Shown here: positions 2,617 to 18,014 of the stretch, piece after piece
Numbering within the stretch: position 1 is the first letter of the stretch
Layout: the number at the start of each line of letters is the position of its first letter
Source of the DNA: a virus
Lineage: Duplodnaviria; Heunggongvirae; Uroviricota; Caudoviricetes
Virus record (IMG/VR): IMGVR_UViG_3300029705_000031
Direction: 5' to 3' (one strand)
Length of the DNA stretch: 64,000 nt
Translations under genes and position numbers: made by a program
Notes under the pieces: generated by a model
What the model was told of the DNA's origin: nothing
What the model saw: the letters and a program-made list of their open reading frames with translations, nothing else
The model's database searches: none

Positions 2617-4356
2617 ATGGCTCAAGCAACAATTGACAATTTGTTTCTTAATTCTAACATTATAGATGAGGCTGAAGCTAAAGAAAAGATACGTTCTACT
2701 CTAAGTAAGATAGCACAAGAAGTTAGTAGATCTTTAGGCCCTTATGGTAGTACTACTATTATTGAAGATAGACTTGGTGATCATTATATGACTAAGGATG
2801 GTTATACTATTCTTAAGGCTATGAACTATAACTATGATATTTCTCGTACTGTATTAGATATAGTTAAAAAGATTTCTAAGTCTCTAGTTAGAACTGTTGG
2901 TGATGGTTCTACTTCATCTGTTATTATAGCTAATGAACTATTTGGTTCTATCAATACTATTTCAGAAAAGCTAGAATTAGCACCTCAAGATATCTTAGAG
3001 ATCTTTAATGTACTAGCTGAGAAATTTGAAGAGCTAATTCTGGAACATGCAACTCAGATTACAGATGAGAATTTTGATGAAACCATTACTAAGATAGCTA
3101 CTATTTCTTGTAACAACAATCAAGAAAGTGGCAAACTATTCTGTGATATTTTCAAGGCTATTGGTAGATACGGTTTTATCAATCTAGAAAATGGTAAATC
3201 TAGTAAGGACTATTTTGAAAAGGTACAAGGTATTGAAGTTCCTAGAGGTTGGATTAATGCGAGAATGGCCAACCAAAGTGATAGAATTTCAACTGAGTAT
3301 GAAAATGCTTTAGTATTCATGATGAATGACATGATGTCAGATGACGAAATAGATGTTATTGCTGGAATGATGGATACTATATGTATTAAACAGAATGTAC
3401 CTCTAATTCTAATTGCTACTAACTATACATCATCTGTTAAATCTTTCTTTGATGCAAATTTGCAGAAGAATAAGCATCTACCTGTAGTTGCTATAGATAT
3501 CGACGCATCTACTAAGAGAGGTAGAGAAAGATTTGAAGATTTAGCATTAGCTCTTGGATGTCATTACTATGATAAGTTCAATGGAATGGAAAAGATTAAA
3601 GATTTCTCCATTAAAGACTTAGGTAAATGTAAGCGTTTCAAAGGTGATGACCTAAAGTCTATCTTTATTGATGGCGATGGTTATACTTCTAATGCTGAAA
3701 AGCTACAAGAACACATAAAAAATCTAGAAGACGAATACCAGAGATTACAACATATGGATGAAATCCATGATAATCGTGAAACTGATCTGTTTCAGATTAA
3801 GAAGCGTATTGCTACTTTAACATCTAGTATGGCAACTCTTTATGTTGGTGGTAATTCTGAAATGGAAAGAACTACTAGAAAGTTCTTAATGGAAGATGCT
3901 GTCTACGCTTGCAGATCTTCAATAGAACATGGTTATGTTGTAGGTGGTAACTTAATCCTTCCTAAACTAATTGATAAGTATGAAACTGACATAATCACAA
4001 AAACTATCTCTGATAAACGTCTAGAGTATCTATTCAATATCTATGAAACAGTATTATCATTTTCTAATGCAATAAAGTTTATACTAGATACTGTATTTTC
4101 AGCATTTAAGAAATCTTTCTTAACTGTGTTAGAAAATGCACACATCAATAAAGAGAAAGCAGAAGAAATCATAGATACATGTTTAATGGAAGATAAGATC
4201 TATAATGTAAAACTACGTAGATATGAGAATGATAATGAAACTAATGTAATCAATTCAGCTCAGACTGATATTGAGATTATTAAAGCTAGTTTCTCTATCA
4301 TTGGTCTATTAGCTACTAGTAATCAGTTTATTACTACGAATCCTATGAATAGATAA
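2617..4356 (+). CDS. groEL: Phage chaperonin (GroEL-like)
   Basis: SLGPYG, TKDGYTI, VGDGSTS (GDGTT motif), YVGG..E and GYVVGG motifs; 579 aa. Confidence 0.92.
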   Translation: MAQATIDNLFLNSNIIDEAEAKEKIRSTLSKIAQEVSRSLGPYGSTTIIEDRLGDHYMTKDGYTILKAMNYNYDISRTVLDIVKKISKSLVRTVGDGSTSSVIIANELFGSINTISEKLELAPQDILEIFNVLAEKFEELILEHATQITDENFDETITKIATISCNNNQESGKLFCDIFKAIGRYGFINLENGKSSKDYFEKVQGIEVPRGWINARMANQSDRISTEYENALVFMMNDMMSDDEIDVIAGMMDTICIKQNVPLILIATNYTSSVKSFFDANLQKNKHLPVVAIDIDASTKRGRERFEDLALALGCHYYDKFNGMEKIKDFSIKDLGKCKRFKGDDLKSIFIDGDGYTSNAEKLQEHIKNLEDEYQRLQHMDEIHDNRETDLFQIKKRIATLTSSMATLYVGGNSEMERTTRKFLMEDAVYACRSSIEHGYVVGGNLILPKLIDKYETDIITKTISDKRLEYLFNIYETVLSFSNAIKFILDTVFSAFKKSFLTVLENAHINKEKAEEIIDTCLMEDKIYNVKLRRYENDNETNVINSAQTDIEIIKASFSIIGLLATSNQFITTNPMNR

Positions 4357-12213: not shown

Positions 12214-12251
12214 AAAAAATGGAAAATCACTATATAGTGATTTTCCATTTT
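12214..12251. terminator. Bidirectional terminator
   Basis: 17-bp stem AAAATGGAAAATCACTA/TAGTGATTTTCCATTTT between convergent genes. Confidence 0.8.
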
Positions 12252-13518
12252 ACTTTTTAGATTCTTCTATTCTTTTTAATTCTCTCCACTCATATAGAGT
12301 AGCTTGATTAGCGTAACAACCAATATGATAGTTATAATTAAAGAAAGGATTTAAAAGTACAATTTTCTTTTCTCTCCAATCTATTACAAAATCTTTACCA
12401 AAATCTAGTTTTTTTCTATCACGATATAAAACAAACATAAAAGTTTCTACTAGATATTCGTAATCTCTTTTCTGTAATTGCTCATTTATGAAATCAAGTG
12501 TCTCTATTGGTAAGAAATCATCCATAGATATACTATCTAATGGTGTATTAACTTCTGTAACAAGTTCTTGCCATTTAATAAGAGTTTTATCACCAATTGT
12601 ATTATTGGGTCTTAAAGGCACAGATCCATATATATAAACTTTTGATTCATCAAAAGTAGGCTCATAACGTCCTGAAGGTAGAGAATTACATTCAAACATG
12701 TAGTTTGAAGGAATCCATAACTCCATTGTTAGTGTCATTTCTACAATTTCTTCACTTCCAGCCATATTATTCTTGGTAACAGTTTTAGTATCTGTATCAG
12801 GGGGAGTTTCTACAGTTACTAGTATATTAGCTAGATACGTATGGACAAATGTATGATTACCACTACCAGTATATATAACAGGTTCTATATGACCTTGAGA
12901 ATGATTTTTTAGATATCTAAAAAATTCTTCTCTTTCATAAGGATCTTTAATTTCTAAATCCTTACAACTTGATAACGCCTGTATTAAAGTATTTGGAATT
13001 TGAGCTTTTAGTAACTGATTGTTCCAATATACTCTGTCATTATTATGGAATTTTTGTCTTAGCATATAGACAACATCCATTTTTTGTAAATGTGTTTCTA
13101 CCTTGACTTTATAGTCAAAAGAAAACTTAACTCTATTAGGAATGGCAGAGATTATAAGATTATCCTCGTCATTATAAAAAATTTTTTTATAACCATATCT
13201 AGATGAATAATGATTAAAAGTATGAACTATTCCTCTTCTCCAAGTAGGATATGGACCACCATAAGTATCATCATAATCAGGTACAAATGAAGGTGTTATG
13301 GATAATTGAGGATATTGTTTAATTGGTATATCATCATCGTCTATTTCTGCTTGTTGTGAAGAAGCTAATGCAGTAGAAATATAAATGTCTTTAAAGTAAT
13401 TTTCTGGAAAAAAATCTAAAATTAAATCTCTAGCAAATCCAGTCATAGAACTTAATAAAGAACAAATAGAATTTGAAACATTACAAGTGATTATAGTTTT
13501 TTTAGAATTGCTTTTCAT
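12250..13518 (-). CDS. Virion structural protein, possibly tail terminator (gp15-like)
   Basis: YPQLSITP and PNRVKFSFDYKV..DVVYMLRQKF loosely resemble the gp15 pattern; lies in a late operon. Confidence 0.4.
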   Translation of the reverse strand: MKSNSKKTIITCNVSNSICSLLSSMTGFARDLILDFFPENYFKDIYISTALASSQQAEIDDDDIPIKQYPQLSITPSFVPDYDDTYGGPYPTWRRGIVHTFNHYSSRYGYKKIFYNDEDNLIISAIPNRVKFSFDYKVKVETHLQKMDVVYMLRQKFHNNDRVYWNNQLLKAQIPNTLIQALSSCKDLEIKDPYEREEFFRYLKNHSQGHIEPVIYTGSGNHTFVHTYLANILVTVETPPDTDTKTVTKNNMAGSEEIVEMTLTMELWIPSNYMFECNSLPSGRYEPTFDESKVYIYGSVPLRPNNTIGDKTLIKWQELVTEVNTPLDSISMDDFLPIETLDFINEQLQKRDYEYLVETFMFVLYRDRKKLDFGKDFVIDWREKKIVLLNPFFNYNYHIGCYANQATLYEWRELKRIEESKK

Positions 13519-14639
13519 TCTTCATCACTTCTCTCATCAATCATATTGCTTATAACAATTTTACCATTATGCTCTTTAAGATTTATTAAAGTACCATCTT
13601 TTGTTTCTACTATTGGTAACATAGGATCATCTGTATGCTTACGAACAATTCCCATTTCTCCATTAGATAAAATTACTTCTTCATCTATAGCAAAATAAGA
13701 TATATGACGCATTATAAGATCAGAAACTTCTTTAGAGAACATATATGATGAATTACGAACAAAGAATTTATTGATGTTTTTACCATTTCCTATAGATGGG
13801 AATTTATGTTTAAATCTCATTAAGAACATATCAAAATAGTTAGCGGCTTGTACAATATTGACAGCTATATCTTTTTGCTCATTAGTAATTTTGTTTTCTT
13901 CATAGTATGTTGGATATGACATATATCTTTTTTTAGTTTTATCATAAGATTTATCATAATTTTCCCAAACATTTTGAAGAAGAATAATTTTTTTACTAAT
14001 TAAGGGAACTAATTTGTTATTAAGAACTTCATTATATCCTAAAACTGGAACCATTTCAATTAAGTGATATTCTTCCATGTTATAGGCATGATTACTTTCA
14101 GCTAGAATTGGAAATTCTATAAATAACTTATTTCTTCCAATTTCATGCAATATACTTCCTATTGCAATTCCTTTAATTAAATTATGACTTAAATTAGCTT
14201 TAATTGCAATAATAAGTGATATAATAGTTACACGAATTGAATGATTAAATATTTTAGTATTTAAGATAAACAGATTTTCTAAATAGTTTTTAAAGTATTT
14301 TTCTTTTAAGATATCATTTAAAAAAATATCTATAATGTTTTTTAGCAAATCTATATCATCTGTACCTGAATATGAGTATCTATTAAAGATAAGGTCCATT
14401 TCAGATTTAATAATATCTAAGATATCATCAGTAATAATGTTTGTAATATCATTATTTAAAGTATCACTAGTATAAGTGAAAATATAGAAAATATGATCTT
14501 TTAATTCAGTTACTCTGTTTATAAAAGCATCATCAATTACAGAGTTACTCTGGAAGAGTAACTGTCCATTATAAAAAACGTCTCTAGCTAGAAACGCACC
14601 TTCATAATCAGCAATTTCATTAACATTAACTTTTTTCAT
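13515..14639 (-). CDS. HD-GYP domain protein, catalytically degenerate
   Basis: Clostridial architecture (LARDVF..GQLL; NHSIRVT; LHEIGR; SYP; VILSNGEMGIV..P.LPIV) with HD changed to HE, HH to QN and AD to AN. Confidence 0.8.
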   Translation of the reverse strand: MKKVNVNEIADYEGAFLARDVFYNGQLLFQSNSVIDDAFINRVTELKDHIFYIFTYTSDTLNNDITNIITDDILDIIKSEMDLIFNRYSYSGTDDIDLLKNIIDIFLNDILKEKYFKNYLENLFILNTKIFNHSIRVTIISLIIAIKANLSHNLIKGIAIGSILHEIGRNKLFIEFPILAESNHAYNMEEYHLIEMVPVLGYNEVLNNKLVPLISKKIILLQNVWENYDKSYDKTKKRYMSYPTYYEENKITNEQKDIAVNIVQAANYFDMFLMRFKHKFPSIGNGKNINKFFVRNSSYMFSKEVSDLIMRHISYFAIDEEVILSNGEMGIVRKHTDDPMLPIVETKDGTLINLKEHNGKIVISNMIDERSDEE

Positions 14640-14648
14640 CTAAAACAG

Positions 14649-15401
14649 TTACTCTCCTTTCTCTTCTTTTTCTTTTTTCTTTTGTCTAGTTATGCATTGT
14701 AATGCTTCTTCTTTACTAATTAAACGGTTATTTAATCTAATTAGATTTAGAATAGCTCTTGCTTCTTTTAATTCTTCAGTATCTAATACATACATCTCTA
14801 GTAATTTTTCAACTTGTTCATCAGGAGTTTCAAATAAAGATTGAGTTATCATTTTGAACTTCTGGTTAGGAGAAATATATCCATACATTTCTAGTATCAT
14901 TATGATATTAAGCTGATTAAAAGAAGTTATATTTTCAGGTAATTTAAGGTCATTCGGATCATAGAAATTTGGCAGCAAATCATCTTCTGTATTATCCAAA
15001 TTGTTATTAACAACAATATTTACATTATTGTTATTTTCAACTGTTTTTTCTTTAGTAGATTCTTCTTTGTCATCTTTTTTCTTTTTGGATTTAAAAGCAG
15101 AAATCTTAGGCATAAAATAAAGAGTAGCTAGTATACTAAACACAATAGAAACTAGGATATTTTCTATCAATAGTATACAACATATACTAATACCCATAGA
15201 TACAATCAATTCTAATAGATAATCAGATAGTCTATATCTCTTATCTTCTGCTAAATCTTCCTTCTTTACTAGTAAAAAATCCCTGATAGCAAAAAATACA
15301 GATAGTGCTATCAGAGTTATTATATAGTAAATAAAGGATAAATCCTTCCCTTGCATATTACCAACAAGAATTTCAAAAAAAGATGTGATATTAAAATTCA
15401 T
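14649..15401 (-). CDS. Membrane protein (about 3-4 N-terminal TM helices, cytoplasmic C-terminus)
   Basis: Hydrophobic stretches within residues ~23-97, then K-rich and N-rich linker. Confidence 0.65.
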   Translation of the reverse strand: MNFNITSFFEILVGNMQGKDLSFIYYIITLIALSVFFAIRDFLLVKKEDLAEDKRYRLSDYLLELIVSMGISICCILLIENILVSIVFSILATLYFMPKISAFKSKKKKDDKEESTKEKTVENNNNVNIVVNNNLDNTEDDLLPNFYDPNDLKLPENITSFNQLNIIMILEMYGYISPNQKFKMITQSLFETPDEQVEKLLEMYVLDTEELKEARAILNLIRLNNRLISKEEALQCITRQKKKEKEEKGE

Positions 15402-15452
15402 ATCATATCACCAACTTTCTTTCTTTATACAAAATTTTTATGTTTAAAATCT

Positions 15453-15464
15453 TAATATATTGTT
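15453..15464 (-). promoter_or_regulatory. Late promoter motif AACA-N6-TA
   Basis: AACA-ATATAT-TA upstream of the 15401 operon. Confidence 0.55.
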
Positions 15465-15470
15465 AAAAAA

Positions 15471-15508
15471 AATAAAGAAAGATTGATAAAAATCAATATT
15501 TCTTTATT
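15471..15508 (-). terminator. Intrinsic terminator
   Basis: AATAAAGAAAGATTGAT/ATCAATATTTCTTTATT stem (one mismatch) with A-tract on the left. Confidence 0.7.
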
Positions 15509-15518
15509 GTTTGTTTCT

Positions 15519-15929
15519 TTAAGGAAGACCTAGAATTTTCATATCAATAAGATTGTTAATTGTATCTAGTAAGAATTCTTGTGTTAATAAGTCATTTTCA
15601 TTTTCAATTTCTTTGTAATCAAAGAACTTTTTGAAATTATAACCACACATACCACCATAACTAGTACAACTAAATCTTATTTTCTTTTTATAAGCTTTAG
15701 CATCTTCATCATAGATACCTAACCATACACCATTTTCAGTACCATATTTTAAATCTGCTGGTGTACCTATACCTTTAGAGATACACCAAGCATCTATTAC
15801 GCTATTTCTCCAGAATAGAGGTTCTTTAATCTGAGTTCTATCTAAGACTATTAGTTTAGTAATGTCATTTGGCTTTAGATTGTACTTGTTTTTTACCTTT
15901 GGTTCTCTCATATAGTTACTCCTTACCAC
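15519..15929 (-). CDS. Hypothetical protein
   Basis: 136 aa ORF. Confidence 0.7.
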   Translation of the reverse strand: MVRSNYMREPKVKNKYNLKPNDITKLIVLDRTQIKEPLFWRNSVIDAWCISKGIGTPADLKYGTENGVWLGIYDEDAKAYKKKIRFSCTSYGGMCGYNFKKFFDYKEIENENDLLTQEFLLDTINNLIDMKILGLP

Positions 15930-15952
15930 ATATCAGAAGTTTATCTCCAAAT

Positions 15953-16213
15953 TTATAAATTTTCATTAAAGAAACGATTAATATCAGTAATTTCAAATAA
16001 ATCAGTTCTCCATCTACCTGCCCATGTTGCATATGCCTTTGCTTTTCCTTCTAATAGTTCATTAAAAAGCATTATATTTCTATTTATATTAGATTTATTT
16101 CTTCCAAACTGTTCAATTTCATTATTCTCTCTAATTATAAAATAACAATTTAGCGAATTACTTTTGATATTATATGGAAATGTATCAACTTCAATATCTT
16201 TTCTCATTTGCAT
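15953..16213 (-). CDS. Hypothetical protein
   Basis: 86 aa, AYATWAGRWRTDLFEI. Confidence 0.7.
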   Translation of the reverse strand: MQMRKDIEVDTFPYNIKSNSLNCYFIIRENNEIEQFGRNKSNINRNIMLFNELLEGKAKAYATWAGRWRTDLFEITDINRFFNENL

Positions 16214-16233
16214 TATTTCCTTTCATAAAATTT

Positions 16234-16268
16234 TAGTCTAGATGACTCTTAATGAATCATCTAGACTA
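16234..16268 (-). terminator. Hairpin/terminator after the RNAP gene
   Basis: TAGTCTAGATGACTC/GAATCATCTAGACTA. Confidence 0.7.
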
Positions 16269-16284
16269 TTATTAATGTTTTTAC

Positions 16285-17667
16285 TTATAAATTGAATTGG
16301 TGAATACCAATTACTTGATCACGATCAATAGAAAGTTTGTTATTGAATCTACCAGTATTATTACTAATGAACATTTTGTTAGGACTAAATGCTCTATAGA
16401 ATTCAGTCTTGTATTCATTATCCATAATTGGGAAGAAATTAAGAACATCTCCATCATAATCGGCACCCAGTAATTCTAGGATACAGTTATGAATAGAAGT
16501 TGTTAGGTCTGAAATGTCATCTTTTACGTGGGCAATTCGAAGTACCTGTATAGATCCCCTCGCAATTGTTGGATTTCTATTAGCTAATACTAACAATCCA
16601 TGTTTAGTCTTCTTAACTAATTCAAGACACAGATTGTAAATCTCTGGATTAAAGTTAGCCTGTGCTTCATATACAATTCTCTGTGCCTCTAACATTGAAA
16701 TTTTCTTTAGTTTACTTAGCATATTGATTAGATGGAATGAATAAAGTTCAACAAATGCTAAATAAGGAAATATAATATCAGTTACGTCATATCCAGCTTC
16801 CATAGGAGTAATAACACTTCTGCAAGAGAAGTTTAGACGACTTCCAAGTACACTTGATCTAATAAAGCCAGACTTACCAGCTAAATTTTCAATGATCTTA
16901 TTAAATACCAGAATAGCTTTATTCTGAATATTGAATAAGTTAGGTAGTACAATTAGATCAAAATCTTTAGATTCTTTATTGATCATATTTGATAGCTTGA
17001 TAATGAAGTTATAAGAATTGTTAATCTCATCAAACTTAAATACAGGTTTATCCTTATAGGTAACACTAGCAGGCCTTAATAAAGTATCATACACAGGAAT
17101 GTGTTGTAAAAATACTTTTTCCTGATGTTCCATTAGTAAGTTATAAACAGCTTCTTTATTCTTATACTTAGAATTATCATAAAGATAGTCTAGAATTTTC
17201 TCGCCTTCAAAGAAATTTTCCTTAAAATATACTAGACCAGAGTTATCAAATTTACCCTTTTCTTCTTCAATAACAATTCCATCTTTGTCAATTTTCTTAT
17301 CATAAGAAATGATCTTGTTTAGTTTCTGTACACCTGAAGTTAACTTAGCAATCTCATAATAGAATACAGGATTGATAATCCAATACTTTCCTAAACTAAT
17401 CCATGCTAGTTTTTCTAACATTGGTTCTTGATACTTTACTTCAGATTTACATTCTTCACATATATATCCTCTTAGGAACTTACCTTTATATTTTCCACAT
17501 TCACAAGAATAAGATAGCATTTCATTATCACTATTGTTTTTACCAAATAGCTTTTCTGAAAATAGACCATCATCAGAGAAAGATTTTTCTTTAGTTAAAG
17601 GTTGTGGATTTGTAATCAATCTACTAGGATCATACAAACTTTCTAAATCTACAAATTCAGTTCTCAT
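16285..17667 (-). CDS. rpoC: Phage multisubunit RNA polymerase beta' N-terminal subunit with catalytic motif
   Basis: DGLFSEKLFG, CECG..CEEC Zn finger, GKSGFIRSSVLGSR, NRNPT, GADYDGD (DxDGD). Confidence 0.92.
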   Translation of the reverse strand: MRTEFVDLESLYDPSRLITNPQPLTKEKSFSDDGLFSEKLFGKNNSDNEMLSYSCECGKYKGKFLRGYICEECKSEVKYQEPMLEKLAWISLGKYWIINPVFYYEIAKLTSGVQKLNKIISYDKKIDKDGIVIEEEKGKFDNSGLVYFKENFFEGEKILDYLYDNSKYKNKEAVYNLLMEHQEKVFLQHIPVYDTLLRPASVTYKDKPVFKFDEINNSYNFIIKLSNMINKESKDFDLIVLPNLFNIQNKAILVFNKIIENLAGKSGFIRSSVLGSRLNFSCRSVITPMEAGYDVTDIIFPYLAFVELYSFHLINMLSKLKKISMLEAQRIVYEAQANFNPEIYNLCLELVKKTKHGLLVLANRNPTIARGSIQVLRIAHVKDDISDLTTSIHNCILELLGADYDGDVLNFFPIMDNEYKTEFYRAFSPNKMFISNNTGRFNNKLSIDRDQVIGIHQFNL

Positions 17668-17956: not shown

Positions 17957-17968
17957 TAATACAATGTT
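17957..17968 (-). promoter_or_regulatory. Late promoter motif AACA-N6-TA
   Basis: AACA-TTGTAT-TA upstream of the beta'N operon. Confidence 0.5.
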
Positions 17969-18014
17969 AGAATATATATTTAAAAGAAAAATTCAGATTT
18001 AAATATATATTCTA
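17968..18014. promoter_or_regulatory. Back-to-back early promoter cores in a perfect 17-bp inverted repeat
   Basis: TAGAATATATATTTAAA-13 nt-TTTAAATATATATTCTA between divergent genes. Confidence 0.6.

What the first reader, a model, noticed from the sequence alone, without database searches (positions are those of the whole stretch)
13515..14639. Catalytically dead HD-GYP protein in a late operon: candidate cyclic-dinucleotide sponge or sensor
Seen: full Clostridial HD-GYP architecture, but metal ligands are eroded (HD to HE, HP to VP, HHE to QNVWE, GYP to SYP, AD to AN). It is translationally coupled to a structural gene, downstream of a membrane protein and a late promoter. Known: HD-GYPs degrade c-di-GMP/cGAMP, degenerate copies act as receptors, and phages encode sponges against CBASS-type signals. 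Inference: it binds rather than degrades a second messenger, or decoys a host partner; it may be virion-associated.
Basis: partly seen in the sequence, partly recalled or inferred. Interest (0 to 1): 0.7.

Follow-up and report, generated by a model that had tools for sequence, protein, structure and literature searches.

The report
Degenerate HD-GYP protein in jumbo phage
[quoted passage not shown] It is therefore probably a non-catalytic signalling or binding protein, though what it binds is unknown.

Summary
Window 13515-14639, on the minus strand, is a 374-aa ORF with an HD-GYP fold: predicted structure pLDDT 89, and PmGH 4MCW is the best match at Z 18.0. It has the Bd1817-type layout, with an N-terminal DUF3391-like domain, the HD-GYP domain and a small C-terminal beta domain.

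Only 2 of the 7 binuclear-site ligands of PmGH are kept. The changes are HD>HE, H250>V, HH>QN and D305>N; GYP reads SYP after two insertions.

The erosion is stepwise:
- Cellular Clostridia relatives (Syntrophomonas, Acetobacterium) keep 7/7 ligands.
- Distant phage relatives keep 6/7.
- The window's clade (SH-aLRT 100) keeps 2-4/7.

The gene is under purifying selection (dN/dS about 0.10-0.14). In all six phage loci it follows a 3-TM membrane protein. Together with a virion-protein homologue, the pair lies between a terminator and an AR9-type late promoter motif (AACA-N6-TA) upstream and a second terminator downstream; the motif is kept in all four loci where the upstream DNA was read.

The sponge reading is weak. 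The c-di-GMP contact motifs (KPG, RxY[K/R]) are absent, the GYP tyrosine varies, expression looks late, and the protein is large and paired with a membrane protein.

My best reading is a non-catalytic regulatory or binding subunit that works with the membrane partner. First readers flagged the same gene pair in two other genomes of this scan; those notes are unchecked.

The parts
13515..14639 (-). Gene for the 374-aa degenerate HD-GYP-family protein (P0001)
   Evidence: ORF; homologues and motif table; AF2 model pLDDT 89.3, pTM 0.84; fold matches to HD-GYP structures; dN/dS 0.10-0.14 against L001 and L002
14304..14639 (-). N-terminal domain (aa 1-112), DUF3391-like: four short strands, then two long helices
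   Evidence: Secondary structure of the model. The family profile aligns to Bd1817 residues 47-300, including its N-terminal domain. Foldseek aligns Bd1817 over 343 columns. 5 of 92 relatives hit PF11871.
13698..14303 (-). S-helix plus HD-GYP-fold domain (aa 113-314) with an eroded metal site: H133, H165-E166, V197, Q222-N223, S241-Y-P, N267, D270
13518..13697 (-). Small C-terminal beta domain (aa 315-374). It is shared with the ~350-aa cellular relatives. Its fold was not identified.
   Evidence: Strands 321-366 in the model; conserved G/P pattern in alignment A2; not covered by the fold searches
14649..15401 (-). Partner gene: 250-aa protein with about three TM segments (aa ~19-102), a disordered Lys/Asn linker and a highly conserved C-terminal helical domain (aa ~159-247)
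   Evidence: Hydropathy; 16 homologues and alignment A4; directly upstream of the HD-GYP-like gene in L001, L002, L003, L006 and L007; model pLDDT 71.6
14661..14927 (-). C-terminal domain of the partner. It has a GSPII/T2SSE_N (MshEN)-like helical fold but lacks the c-di-GMP-binding motif.
   Evidence: VIA-align: MshE+c-di-GMP 5htl_B Z 7.2 (rmsd 2.5 A over 60 residues), PilF GSPII-B 8pdk_A Z 6.9, XpsE-N Z 6.4, PilB-N Z 5.3. ESM Atlas structure rows with MshEN, TM 0.46-0.47. Relaxed MshEN motif absent in 18/18 homologues. No Pfam hit.
12250..13518 (-). Downstream gene, 422 aa, PHROG 21946. It is a homologue of phiR1-37 g272 ('structural protein') and AR9 g251. Its start overlaps the HD-GYP-like stop (ATGA).
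15453..15464 (-). AACAATATATTA: match to the AR9 late-promoter consensus AACA-N6-TA/G, 52 nt upstream of the partner gene
   Evidence: Consensus from PMC5312081. The motif is kept at the same place in L001, L002 and L003 although the flanks diverge. 14 of the 17 intergenic copies in the window lie within 120 nt upstream of a same-strand gene, virion genes included.
15465..15507 (-). AT-rich hairpin followed by U8: probable intrinsic terminator that closes the upstream nvRNAP beta'-N operon
   Evidence: RNA fold -13.8 kcal/mol, z -4.9. An equivalent hairpin plus T-run is present in L001 and L003. phiR1-37 has an annotated terminator at the same place.
12216..12251 (.). Bidirectional terminator hairpin between the convergent genes; the end of the three-gene unit

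Best explanation
The ORF is a real, selectively maintained phage gene for a Bd1817-type protein: a DUF3391-like domain, an HD-GYP fold and a small C-terminal beta domain. It descends from a Clostridia branch of HD-GYP phosphodiesterases marked by 'HHVWE...SYP'.

Shown:
- An AR9/phiR1-37-like gut jumbo-phage lineage carries it as a fixed pair with a 3-TM membrane protein. The pair sits at the head of a transcription unit that also holds a virion-protein homologue.
- The unit is bounded by terminators and preceded by an AR9-type late promoter motif.
- In the window's clade the whole second metal site is gone (H250, H276, H277) and the first is altered (D222E, D305N).

Inferred:
- The protein no longer hydrolyses c-di-GMP by the binuclear mechanism (about 0.8).
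- It acts late in infection as a non-catalytic binding or regulatory subunit together with the membrane protein, whose cytoplasmic tail has a GSPII/MshEN-like fold (about 0.6-0.7 for the partnership).
- Whether the ligand is a cyclic dinucleotide is open (about 0.3). The output is unknown; membrane-linked late events such as lysis timing, superinfection control or assembly are possibilities.
For: Fold and homology.

Ligand map: 2/7 ligands kept, and K225>R and D183>N as well. In PmGH, alanine changes at H189, H221, D222, H250, H276, H277, D183 and K225 abolish activity, while E185A and D305A only reduce it.

Stepwise erosion on a tree:
- Canonical and cellular VW/SYP members keep 7/7.
- Phage-synteny relatives L003, L006 and L007 keep 6/7.
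- The window's clade of 11 representatives (SH-aLRT 100, stem length 0.52) keeps 2-4/7.

Purifying selection: dN/dS is 0.14 and 0.10, like the primase (0.13, 0.06) and the downstream gene (0.13).

Partner:
- The membrane gene lies directly upstream in 6/6 phage loci, and the end of the partner's coding sequence serves as the ribosome-binding site.
- The two proteins' homologue lists share seven contig lengths.
- The partner's C-terminal domain is more conserved than the HD-GYP-like protein: 62% against 36% identity with L006.
- Its only fold matches are GSPII/T2SSE_N domains.

Late unit: terminator, then AACA-N6-TA conserved in four loci, then three genes, then a terminator.

Precedents for non-catalytic HD-GYP domains: DvhD binds c-di-GMP without metal and does not hydrolyse it. 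HnoD and ECA3548 are further examples.
Against: - No biochemical data exist, so inactivity is inferred by analogy with PmGH mutants.
- The classical first-metal positions stay fixed in the clade (H133, H165, N267 and D270 invariant; E166 in 11/12), while only 31% of domain columns are invariant. A mononuclear metal site, and some activity, could therefore survive.
- The partnership with the membrane protein rests on synteny only.
- The GSPII-like fold match is middling (Z about 7, helical) and has no sequence support.
- The promoter assignment rests on a short motif borrowed from a distant relative, AR9.
- The phage's host is unknown.
Confidence: 0.6

Rival explanations
1. Cyclic-dinucleotide or cyclic-oligonucleotide sponge. 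The dead pocket sequesters CBASS or type III CRISPR signals and so blocks host abortive-infection effectors.
For: - HD-GYP fold with a lost metal site.
- DvhD shows that such a domain can bind c-di-GMP and 3'3'-cGAMP tightly without metal.
- Iyer et al. 2021 proposed jumbo-phage HD-GYPs as counter-nucleotide defences.
- The pocket-shell residues remain conserved.
Against: - The KPG loop and RxY[K/R] motif are absent in the entire VW/SYP subfamily, including its metal-intact cellular members.
- The GYP tyrosine, which hydrogen-bonds the phosphate in PmGH and DvhD, varies Y/F/H in the clade.
- The only promoter-like element is of the late type, whereas counter-defence is needed early.
- The protein has 374 aa, three domains and an obligatory membrane partner, unlike the small soluble sponges Tad1, Tad2 and Acb2 (my own knowledge).
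- There is no PADLOC or PHROG link.
Confidence: 0.12
2. It is still an enzyme. A mononuclear HD-type site (H133, H165, E166, N267, with D270 behind it) hydrolyses some other phosphoester, perhaps a linear dinucleotide or another nucleotide, rather than c-di-GMP.
For: - The positions kept and frozen in the clade are exactly the classical H...HD...D set of mononuclear HD hydrolases. The three second-site positions drift: V/I/T/Y, H/Q and N/D/S.
- The replacements D>E and D>N can still ligate metal.
- D305A in PmGH keeps some activity.
- The subfamily as a whole lacks the c-di-GMP specificity motifs, which hints at a different substrate even in its metal-intact members.
Against: - Each of H250A, H276A and H277A alone abolishes PmGH activity, as do D183A and K225A. 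Those last two are N127 and R169 here.
- No HD-GYP with this ligand set was found reported as active in the papers read here.
- The long stem branch (0.52) followed by tight conservation fits a change of function.
Confidence: 0.18
3. It is a ligand-independent structural or scaffold protein. It could be a virion or assembly component, or a decoy that binds a host partner of HD-GYP proteins such as a GGDEF or PilZ protein, using the fold only as a scaffold.
For: - It is co-transcribed and start/stop-overlapped with a homologue of a phiR1-37 structural protein.
- The promoter motif is of the late type.
- Catalytically inactive RpfG-type HD-GYPs act through protein-protein contacts.
Against: - The overlap with the structural gene is not conserved (L001, L003).
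- AR9's homologue of that gene is not listed as a virion protein, although its neighbours are.
- The most conserved residues cluster around the former active site rather than being spread over the surface.
- The constant neighbour is the membrane protein, not the structural one.
Confidence: 0.1

Closest known systems
Bd1817 family (DUF3391 + HD-GYP; Bd1817 of Bdellovibrio, PDB 3TM8; PA4108, VC2497)
   Same: - Same domain order and size class.
- The family profile aligns to Bd1817 across both the N-terminal domain and the HD-GYP domain.
- Foldseek's best hit is Bd1817 over 343 columns; VIA-align gives Z 15.7.
- Bd1817 itself has an imperfect GYP motif.
   Different: - Bd1817, PA4108 and VC2497 keep the metal ligands, and the latter two are active enzymes. 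Here 5 of 7 ligands are replaced.
- There is an extra C-terminal beta domain.
- Insertions of 2 aa (VW) and about 9 aa lie in the HHE-GYP segment.
PmGH of Persephonella marina (PDB 4MCW/4MDZ), the reference active HD-GYP c-di-GMP phosphodiesterase
   Same: Best structural match for the catalytic domain: Z 18.0, rmsd 3.4 A over 184 residues. Profile E-value 5e-49.
   Different: - PmGH has E185, H189, H221, D222, H250, H276, H277 and D305, plus KPG, GYP and RxxK.
- P0001 has K, H, H, E, V, Q, N and N at the ligand positions and lacks KPG and RxxK.
- PmGH carries a GAF sensor rather than DUF3391.
DvhD of Desulfovibrio vulgaris (PDB 9RBZ/9RC0): degenerate HD-GYP c-di-GMP receptor
   Same: - HD-GYP fold with lost metal ligands (HD>SQ, HH>MN).
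- It binds c-di-GMP without metal and does not hydrolyse it.
- Structural match Z 17.6.
- It is membrane-linked signalling, as suggested here by the membrane partner.
   Different: - DvhD is one polypeptide (dCache-TM-PAS-HD-GYP) in a cellular adhesin-control operon.
- It keeps the phosphate and base contacts Y621, K582, R650 and Y652, whose counterparts are not conserved here.
- P0001 still has H133, H165 and E166.
Other inactive HD-GYP proteins: HnoD (Shewanella; HD>SE, HHE>QLE) and ECA3548 (Pectobacterium; HD>HT, HHE>ANE)
   Same: Degenerate HD and HHE motifs, with regulatory rather than catalytic roles.
   Different: They have REC or PilZ partner domains and sit in cellular signalling contexts. 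No phage example has been described.
HD-GYP enzymes of jumbo phages noted by Iyer et al. 2021 (PMC7824862)
   Same: A jumbo-phage-borne HD-GYP family member. Those authors proposed a counter-nucleotide role.
   Different: Those were described as enzymes (phosphodiesterases). The present clade has lost the ligand set, has a fixed membrane partner and carries a late-type promoter motif. tblastn found no relative in 50,697 phage records except one unrelated canonical-type fragment.
MshEN / GSPII (T2SSE_N) domains, for the partner protein
   Same: Every structural hit on the partner's C-terminal domain belongs to this family: 5HTL Z 7.2, 8PDK Z 6.9, 6F8L Z 6.5, 2D28 Z 6.4, 7LKM Z 5.3. An independent Atlas model gave the same family.
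   Different: - The 24-residue c-di-GMP motif, even in its relaxed form, is not met in any of the 18 homologues.
- There is no Pfam hit.
- Here the domain hangs on a 3-TM anchor rather than on a secretion ATPase.

Membership tests
HD-GYP domain (class II c-di-GMP phosphodiesterase; Galperin & Chou definition) | HD-superfamily helical fold with the extra C-terminal helices, and detectable homology to bona fide HD-GYP proteins | tested here: met
   VIA-align gives PmGH Z 18.0, DvhD 17.6, PA4781 16.2 and Bd1817 15.7, all above HDOD and generic HD proteins at Z 9-11.5. phmmer reaches HD_5-bearing proteins at E 1e-10 to 1e-16. Profile against 4mcw: E 5e-49.
HD-GYP domain (class II c-di-GMP phosphodiesterase; Galperin & Chou definition) | Metal-ligand set H189, H221-D222, H250, H276-H277, D305 (PmGH numbering) | tested here: not met
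   The positions read H133, H165-E166, V197, Q222-N223 and N267, so 2 of 7 are identical.
HD-GYP domain (class II c-di-GMP phosphodiesterase; Galperin & Chou definition) | Contiguous HHExh[D/N]GxGYP motif, used by Galperin & Chou to verify members | tested here: not met
   The segment reads QNVWENYDKSYDKTKKRYMSYP: a VW insertion, a further insertion of about 9 residues, and G>S.
HD-GYP domain (class II c-di-GMP phosphodiesterase; Galperin & Chou definition) | c-di-GMP contact motifs KPG and RxY[K/R] | tested here: not met
   The KPG region reads ILAESNHAYNMEE. The RxxK region reads NYFDMFLMRFKHKFPSI, which has a basic patch but is out of register and has pLDDT below 50.
HD-GYP domain (class II c-di-GMP phosphodiesterase; Galperin & Chou definition) | Hydrolysis of c-di-GMP or cGAMP | not testable with these tools
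   Needs an enzyme assay. Loss is inferred from the PmGH alanine scan.
Bd1817 family (DUF3391-HD-GYP architecture) | N-terminal DUF3391: four strands, two long helices and an S-helix before the HD-GYP domain | tested here: inconclusive
   The model has strands 2-5, 21-23, 26-29 and 52-55 and helices 65-85, 93-111 and 114-126. The profile aligns to Bd1817 from residue 47. 5 of 92 relatives hit PF11871, with best E 4e-6, but P0001 itself does not. VIA-align did not cover residues 1-60.
Degenerate HD-GYP c-di-GMP receptors (DvhD type) | Loss of catalytic metal ligands with the fold retained | tested here: met
Degenerate HD-GYP c-di-GMP receptors (DvhD type) | Conserved nucleotide contacts (GYP Tyr, Lys after HD, Arg/Tyr of RxY) and measurable c-di-GMP binding | tested here: inconclusive
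   The Tyr varies Y/F/H, Lys is replaced by an invariant Arg, and RxY is not in register. Binding itself cannot be tested here. In PmGH, single alanine changes at these contacts did not substantially reduce activity, so their absence is not decisive.
Phage cyclic-nucleotide sponges (Tad1, Tad2, Acb2) | Small soluble oligomeric binder of immune cyclic nucleotides, with homology to one of these families | tested here: not met
   The fold is HD-GYP. There are no PHROG or PADLOC hits and BFVD gave no match at E <= 0.001. The size and partner differ. This excludes membership, not a sponge-like action.
MshEN c-di-GMP-binding domain (partner protein) | Two tandem 24-residue motifs [RKPN]hGxxhhxx[GAS]hhxxxxhxxxhxx[QNKRYWST] | tested here: not met
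   0 of 18 homologues match. The best window in the domain scores 8/11, no better than the TM helices.
GSPII / T2SSE_N fold (partner protein) | Four- or five-helix N-terminal domain fold of secretion ATPases | tested here: inconclusive
   Z is 5.3-7.2 with rmsd 2.5-3.0 A over 56-60 residues. All five hits on that region are GSPII domains and an independent Atlas model agrees. However, Z is in the range common for helical models and there is no sequence support.

The most novel reading that the evidence does not exclude
The membrane protein (3-TM anchor plus a GSPII/MshEN-like tail) and the metal-site-eroded HD-GYP protein form a phage-built, late-acting second-messenger sensor. It would read the host's c-di-GMP or another cyclic nucleotide at the membrane and use it to set a late decision such as lysis timing or superinfection exclusion. 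This would be a new type of phage signalling module, made from two degenerate c-di-GMP-family domains.
Probability: 0.15. Interest if true: 0.75.

Novelty: new variant of a known kind. Interest (0 to 1): 0.5.

Why it matters
Catalytically inactive GGDEF, EAL and, since DvhD, HD-GYP domains are known as bacterial receptors. Jumbo-phage HD-GYPs have been proposed as counter-defence enzymes. This case adds a phage lineage in which the enzyme-to-pseudoenzyme transition can be followed step by step: 7/7, then 6/7, then 2-4/7 ligands. It happens under continued purifying selection and with a fixed membrane partner. If a ligand is found, this would be a rare example of a phage sensing a nucleotide signal rather than destroying it. 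It would also give an assayable handle on late-stage decisions in uncultured gut jumbo phages. If no ligand is found, it is a clean example of a fold re-used as a scaffold.

Tried and rejected
- Direct sequence searches for P0001 gave little: Pfam HD below its cut-off; NCBIfam only weak hits; PDB by single sequence nothing; PHROGs and PADLOC nothing.
- blastn of the region against 50,697 phage records found no match.
- tblastn of P0001 against phages found only MT838273, which proved to be a canonical-type HD-GYP on an unrelated 38%-GC fragment.
- I looked for an intact HD-GYP or a GGDEF in the phage's own genome, as a possible catalytic partner. There is none. The only other HD protein is a CCA-adding enzyme.
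- The neighbours of the cellular relatives are ordinary chromosomal genes and were uninformative.
- For the partner protein, Foldseek against PDB, Pfam at E <= 5 and tblastn against phages all gave nothing. The MshEN c-di-GMP motif was tested and is not met, so I do not claim that the partner binds c-di-GMP.
- A 'holin' reading of the partner, suggested in earlier first-reader notes, has no support beyond its topology.
- The terminator-like hairpin inside the ORF (14578-14597) is treated as chance: 3 such sites were found against 1.2 expected.
- The fold of the C-terminal beta domain of P0001 was not determined.
Full report
**What is there**

The finding's coordinates are exactly one ORF, on the minus strand: 13515..14639, 374 aa, called P0001 here. 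The window is part of a 319,626-bp virus record that CheckV rates 100% complete. GC is about 27%.

Several features mark it as a jumbo phage of the AR9/PBS1/phiR1-37 type:
- split multisubunit RNA polymerase genes;
- a GroEL, a sigma-like factor and a primase;
- virion proteins shared with AR9, PBS1, phiR1-37 and Staphylococcus phage S6.

**Is it an HD-GYP protein?**

Single-sequence library scans barely see it. Pfam HD scores E 0.0037, below the cut-off; PDB and PHROGs give nothing. Exhaustive searches are clear:
- phmmer against 1.84 billion representatives gave 638 hits. The more distant ones are ~350-aa proteins aligned end to end that carry Pfam HD_5 and HD above threshold.
- A profile of 92 family members hits PmGH (4MCW) at E 5e-49, V-cGAP3 at 2e-45 and Bd1817 at 2e-29. 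The Bd1817 alignment also covers the N-terminal domain.
- An AlphaFold2 model built on that alignment is confident (pLDDT 89.3, pTM 0.84).
- Its best structural matches are all HD-GYP structures: PmGH Z 18.0 (rmsd 3.4 A over 184 residues), DvhD 17.6, PA4781 16.2 and Bd1817 15.7. HDOD and generic HD proteins lie lower, at Z 9-11.5.

The model's N-terminal part has four short strands, two long helices and an S-helix, as described for DUF3391 of Bd1817. Five of the 92 relatives hit PF11871. A small beta domain (aa ~315-366) follows; its fold was not identified. The nearest cellular relatives are in Syntrophomonas, Acetobacterium and Clostridiales MAGs.

**The eroded site**

I used the profile alignment to 4MCW (chain numbering = literature numbering +6) and the ligand list of Bellini et al. 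and Galperin & Chou. The mapping is:

| PmGH residue | P0001 residue |
|---|---|
| E185 | K129 |
| H189 | H133 |
| H221 | H165 |
| D222 | E166 |
| H250 | V197 |
| H276 | Q222 |
| H277 | N223 |
| D305 | N267 |
| D183 (essential) | N127 |
| K225 (essential) | R169 |

The HHE-GYP segment carries a VW insertion and a further insertion of about 9 residues, and GYP reads SYP. In PmGH, single alanine changes at H189, H221, D222, H250, H276, H277, D183 or K225 essentially abolish activity. E185A and D305A only reduce it. P0001 has three of the 'lethal' histidines replaced at once, so loss of the canonical binuclear phosphodiesterase activity is a strong inference, though not a measurement.

**How it got that way**

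The 'HHVWE...SYP' form is a distinct subfamily, about 44 of the representatives.
- Its cellular members (GC 40-44%, ordinary chromosomal neighbours) keep 7/7 ligands.
- The phage-borne members that share the window's gene order (L003, L006, L007; 33-39% identical) keep all histidines but have D305>N/G, so 6/7.
- The window's own clade (11 representatives; SH-aLRT 100; stem branch 0.52 substitutions per site) has 2-4/7.

Within that clade the gene is under purifying selection. dN/dS is 0.14 against L001 and 0.10 against L002; dS is saturated, so these values are rough. They are like the neighbouring primase (0.13, 0.06) and the downstream gene (0.13).

The positions of the classical first metal site are frozen: H133, H165, N267 and D270 are invariant, and E166 is present in 11 of 12 sequences. 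The three former second-site positions drift (V/I/T/Y, H/Q, N/D/S), and so does the GYP tyrosine (Y/F/H). For comparison, 31% of domain columns are invariant. So the pocket is still constrained, but in a new way.

**Context**

Directly upstream (14649..15401, minus strand) lies a 250-aa protein. It has about three TM segments, a disordered Lys/Asn linker and a very conserved C-terminal helical domain.
- It precedes the HD-GYP-like gene in all six phage loci where the upstream DNA is available. The partner's last codons form the ribosome-binding site.
- The two proteins' homologue lists share seven contig lengths.
- No relative of the partner exists in 50,697 phage records.

Downstream is a PHROG 21946 protein (12250..13518), homologous to phiR1-37 g272 ('structural protein') and AR9 g251. 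AR9 g251 is annotated 'putative membrane protein', not 'virion protein'. The ATGA overlap seen in the window is not conserved in L001 or L003.

In phiR1-37 the order is RpoC-N (g274), g273, terminator, g272. The window has the same frame, with the membrane/HD-GYP pair inserted after the terminator.

**Timing**

AR9 early promoters read AAATATATATTAT-N6-G and late ones AACA-N6-TA/G (PMC5312081).
- The operon of the nvRNAP beta'-N subunit is preceded by AAATATATATTCT-AACATT-G (17969-17981, minus strand). AR9 and the 'non-virion' Staphylococcus phage homologues identify that subunit.
- After that operon comes an AT-rich hairpin plus U8 (-13.8 kcal/mol, z -4.9).
- Then comes AACAATATATTA, 52 nt before the partner gene.
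- An AACA-N6-TA element sits at the same place in L001, L002 and L003, even though the flanks have diverged.
- In the window, 14 of the 17 intergenic copies of the motif lie within 120 nt upstream of a same-strand gene, including virion structural genes.
- A bidirectional terminator closes the unit at 12216-12251.

A late three-gene unit is thus plausible, but it is inferred from motifs.

**What does it do?**

The sponge idea has a good precedent for the principle. DvhD is an HD-GYP with HD>SQ and HH>MN that binds c-di-GMP and 3'3'-cGAMP without metal and cannot hydrolyse them. The specifics do not fit well:
- The KPG loop and RxY[K/R] motif that hold the bases are absent throughout the VW/SYP subfamily.
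- The phosphate-binding tyrosine varies.
- The only promoter-like element is late.
- The protein is large, has three domains and is tied to a membrane protein.

Against over-reading these points: single alanine changes at those contact residues did not substantially reduce PmGH activity. Their absence is therefore not decisive.

The partner's C-terminal domain gave an unexpected, weak lead. Two independent models (ESM Atlas, and my AF2 model searched with VIA-align against 48,161 chains) match only GSPII/T2SSE_N domains on that region. These include MshE with c-di-GMP (Z 7.2, rmsd 2.5 A over 60 residues) and PilF GSPII-B with c-di-GMP (Z 6.9). But the MshEN nucleotide motif, even in its relaxed form, is not met in any of 18 homologues, and Pfam sees nothing. 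I treat it as a protein-interaction-type GSPII-like domain until shown otherwise.

**Verdict**

The interpretation 'catalytically dead HD-GYP' is well supported by inference. 'Sponge' is the least supported of the options. 'Sensor or adaptor working with the membrane protein, late in infection' is my best reading (0.6).

The rivals are:
- a mononuclear enzyme with a new substrate (0.18);
- a cyclic-nucleotide sponge (0.12);
- a ligand-free scaffold or virion component (0.10).

Degenerate HD-GYP receptors and phage HD-GYPs are both known, so this is a new variant of a known kind. Its interest lies in the traceable enzyme-to-pseudoenzyme path inside a phage lineage and in the fixed two-gene module.

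First readers of this scan noted the same gene pair in two other genomes, including the 'MshEN-like' tail. Those notes are unchecked. Here the fold lead is weakly supported and the motif is refuted.

Noticed in passing
window 17957-18013: An inverted pair of AR9-early-like motifs (AAATATATATTCT) lies at 17969-17981 (-) and 18001-18013 (+), between divergent genes. The minus-strand copy fits AAATATATATTAT-N6-G with one mismatch and is overlapped by a late-type AACATTGTATTA at 17957-17968. The nvRNAP beta'-N operon may therefore be of AR9's 'continuously expressed' class.
   Followed up: partly
window 14661-14927 (-), C-terminal domain of the 250-aa membrane protein: This helical domain's only structural look-alikes are GSPII/T2SSE_N (MshEN-type) domains (Z 5.3-7.2), but it lacks the c-di-GMP-binding motif. 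It contains three similar helix-hairpin segments: ILEMYGYISPNQKFKMITQ, LLEMYVLDTEELKEARAIL and RLNNRLISKEEALQCI.
   Followed up: partly
L017:2094-3317 (own genome G000:C1 about 146.3-147.5 kb, outside the window): A GyrA/ParC-like topoisomerase subunit gene is interrupted by an intein with a LAGLIDADG endonuclease domain (Pfam DNA_topoisoIV, Intein_splicing, LAGLIDADG_3).
   Followed up: no
L017:736-2079 (own genome, outside the window): A phage-encoded CCA-adding enzyme (PolyA_pol head, tRNA_NucTran2_2, HD). It is the only other HD-domain protein in the 320-kb genome. No GGDEF or intact HD-GYP is present.
   Followed up: yes
window 14578-14597 (-): A terminator-like GC hairpin plus T-run lies inside the 5' part of the HD-GYP-like ORF. 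It is probably chance (3 sites found against 1.2 expected in the region).
   Followed up: no
L005 (phiR1-37 189907-199103) compared with window 12250-17667: The conserved frame RpoC-N, small gene, terminator, g272-like gene is shared with phiR1-37. The membrane/HD-GYP pair is an insertion specific to the uncultured low-GC lineage and is absent from AR9, PBS1, phiR1-37 and S6-like phages.
   Followed up: yes
L010:6001-9962: In one metagenome contig of cellular type (GC 44%), a metal-intact VW/SYP-subfamily HD-GYP lies next to an 867-aa GAF-HD-GYP protein, so two HD-GYP paralogues sit in tandem.
   Followed up: no
L019 (MT838273.1) 3297-4325: An unverified 5.4-kb 'Bacteriophage sp.' fragment from human faeces encodes a 342-aa HD-GYP of the same overall layout, with an intact HD motif and HHERLDGSGFP. 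It shows no synteny with the window.
   Followed up: partly
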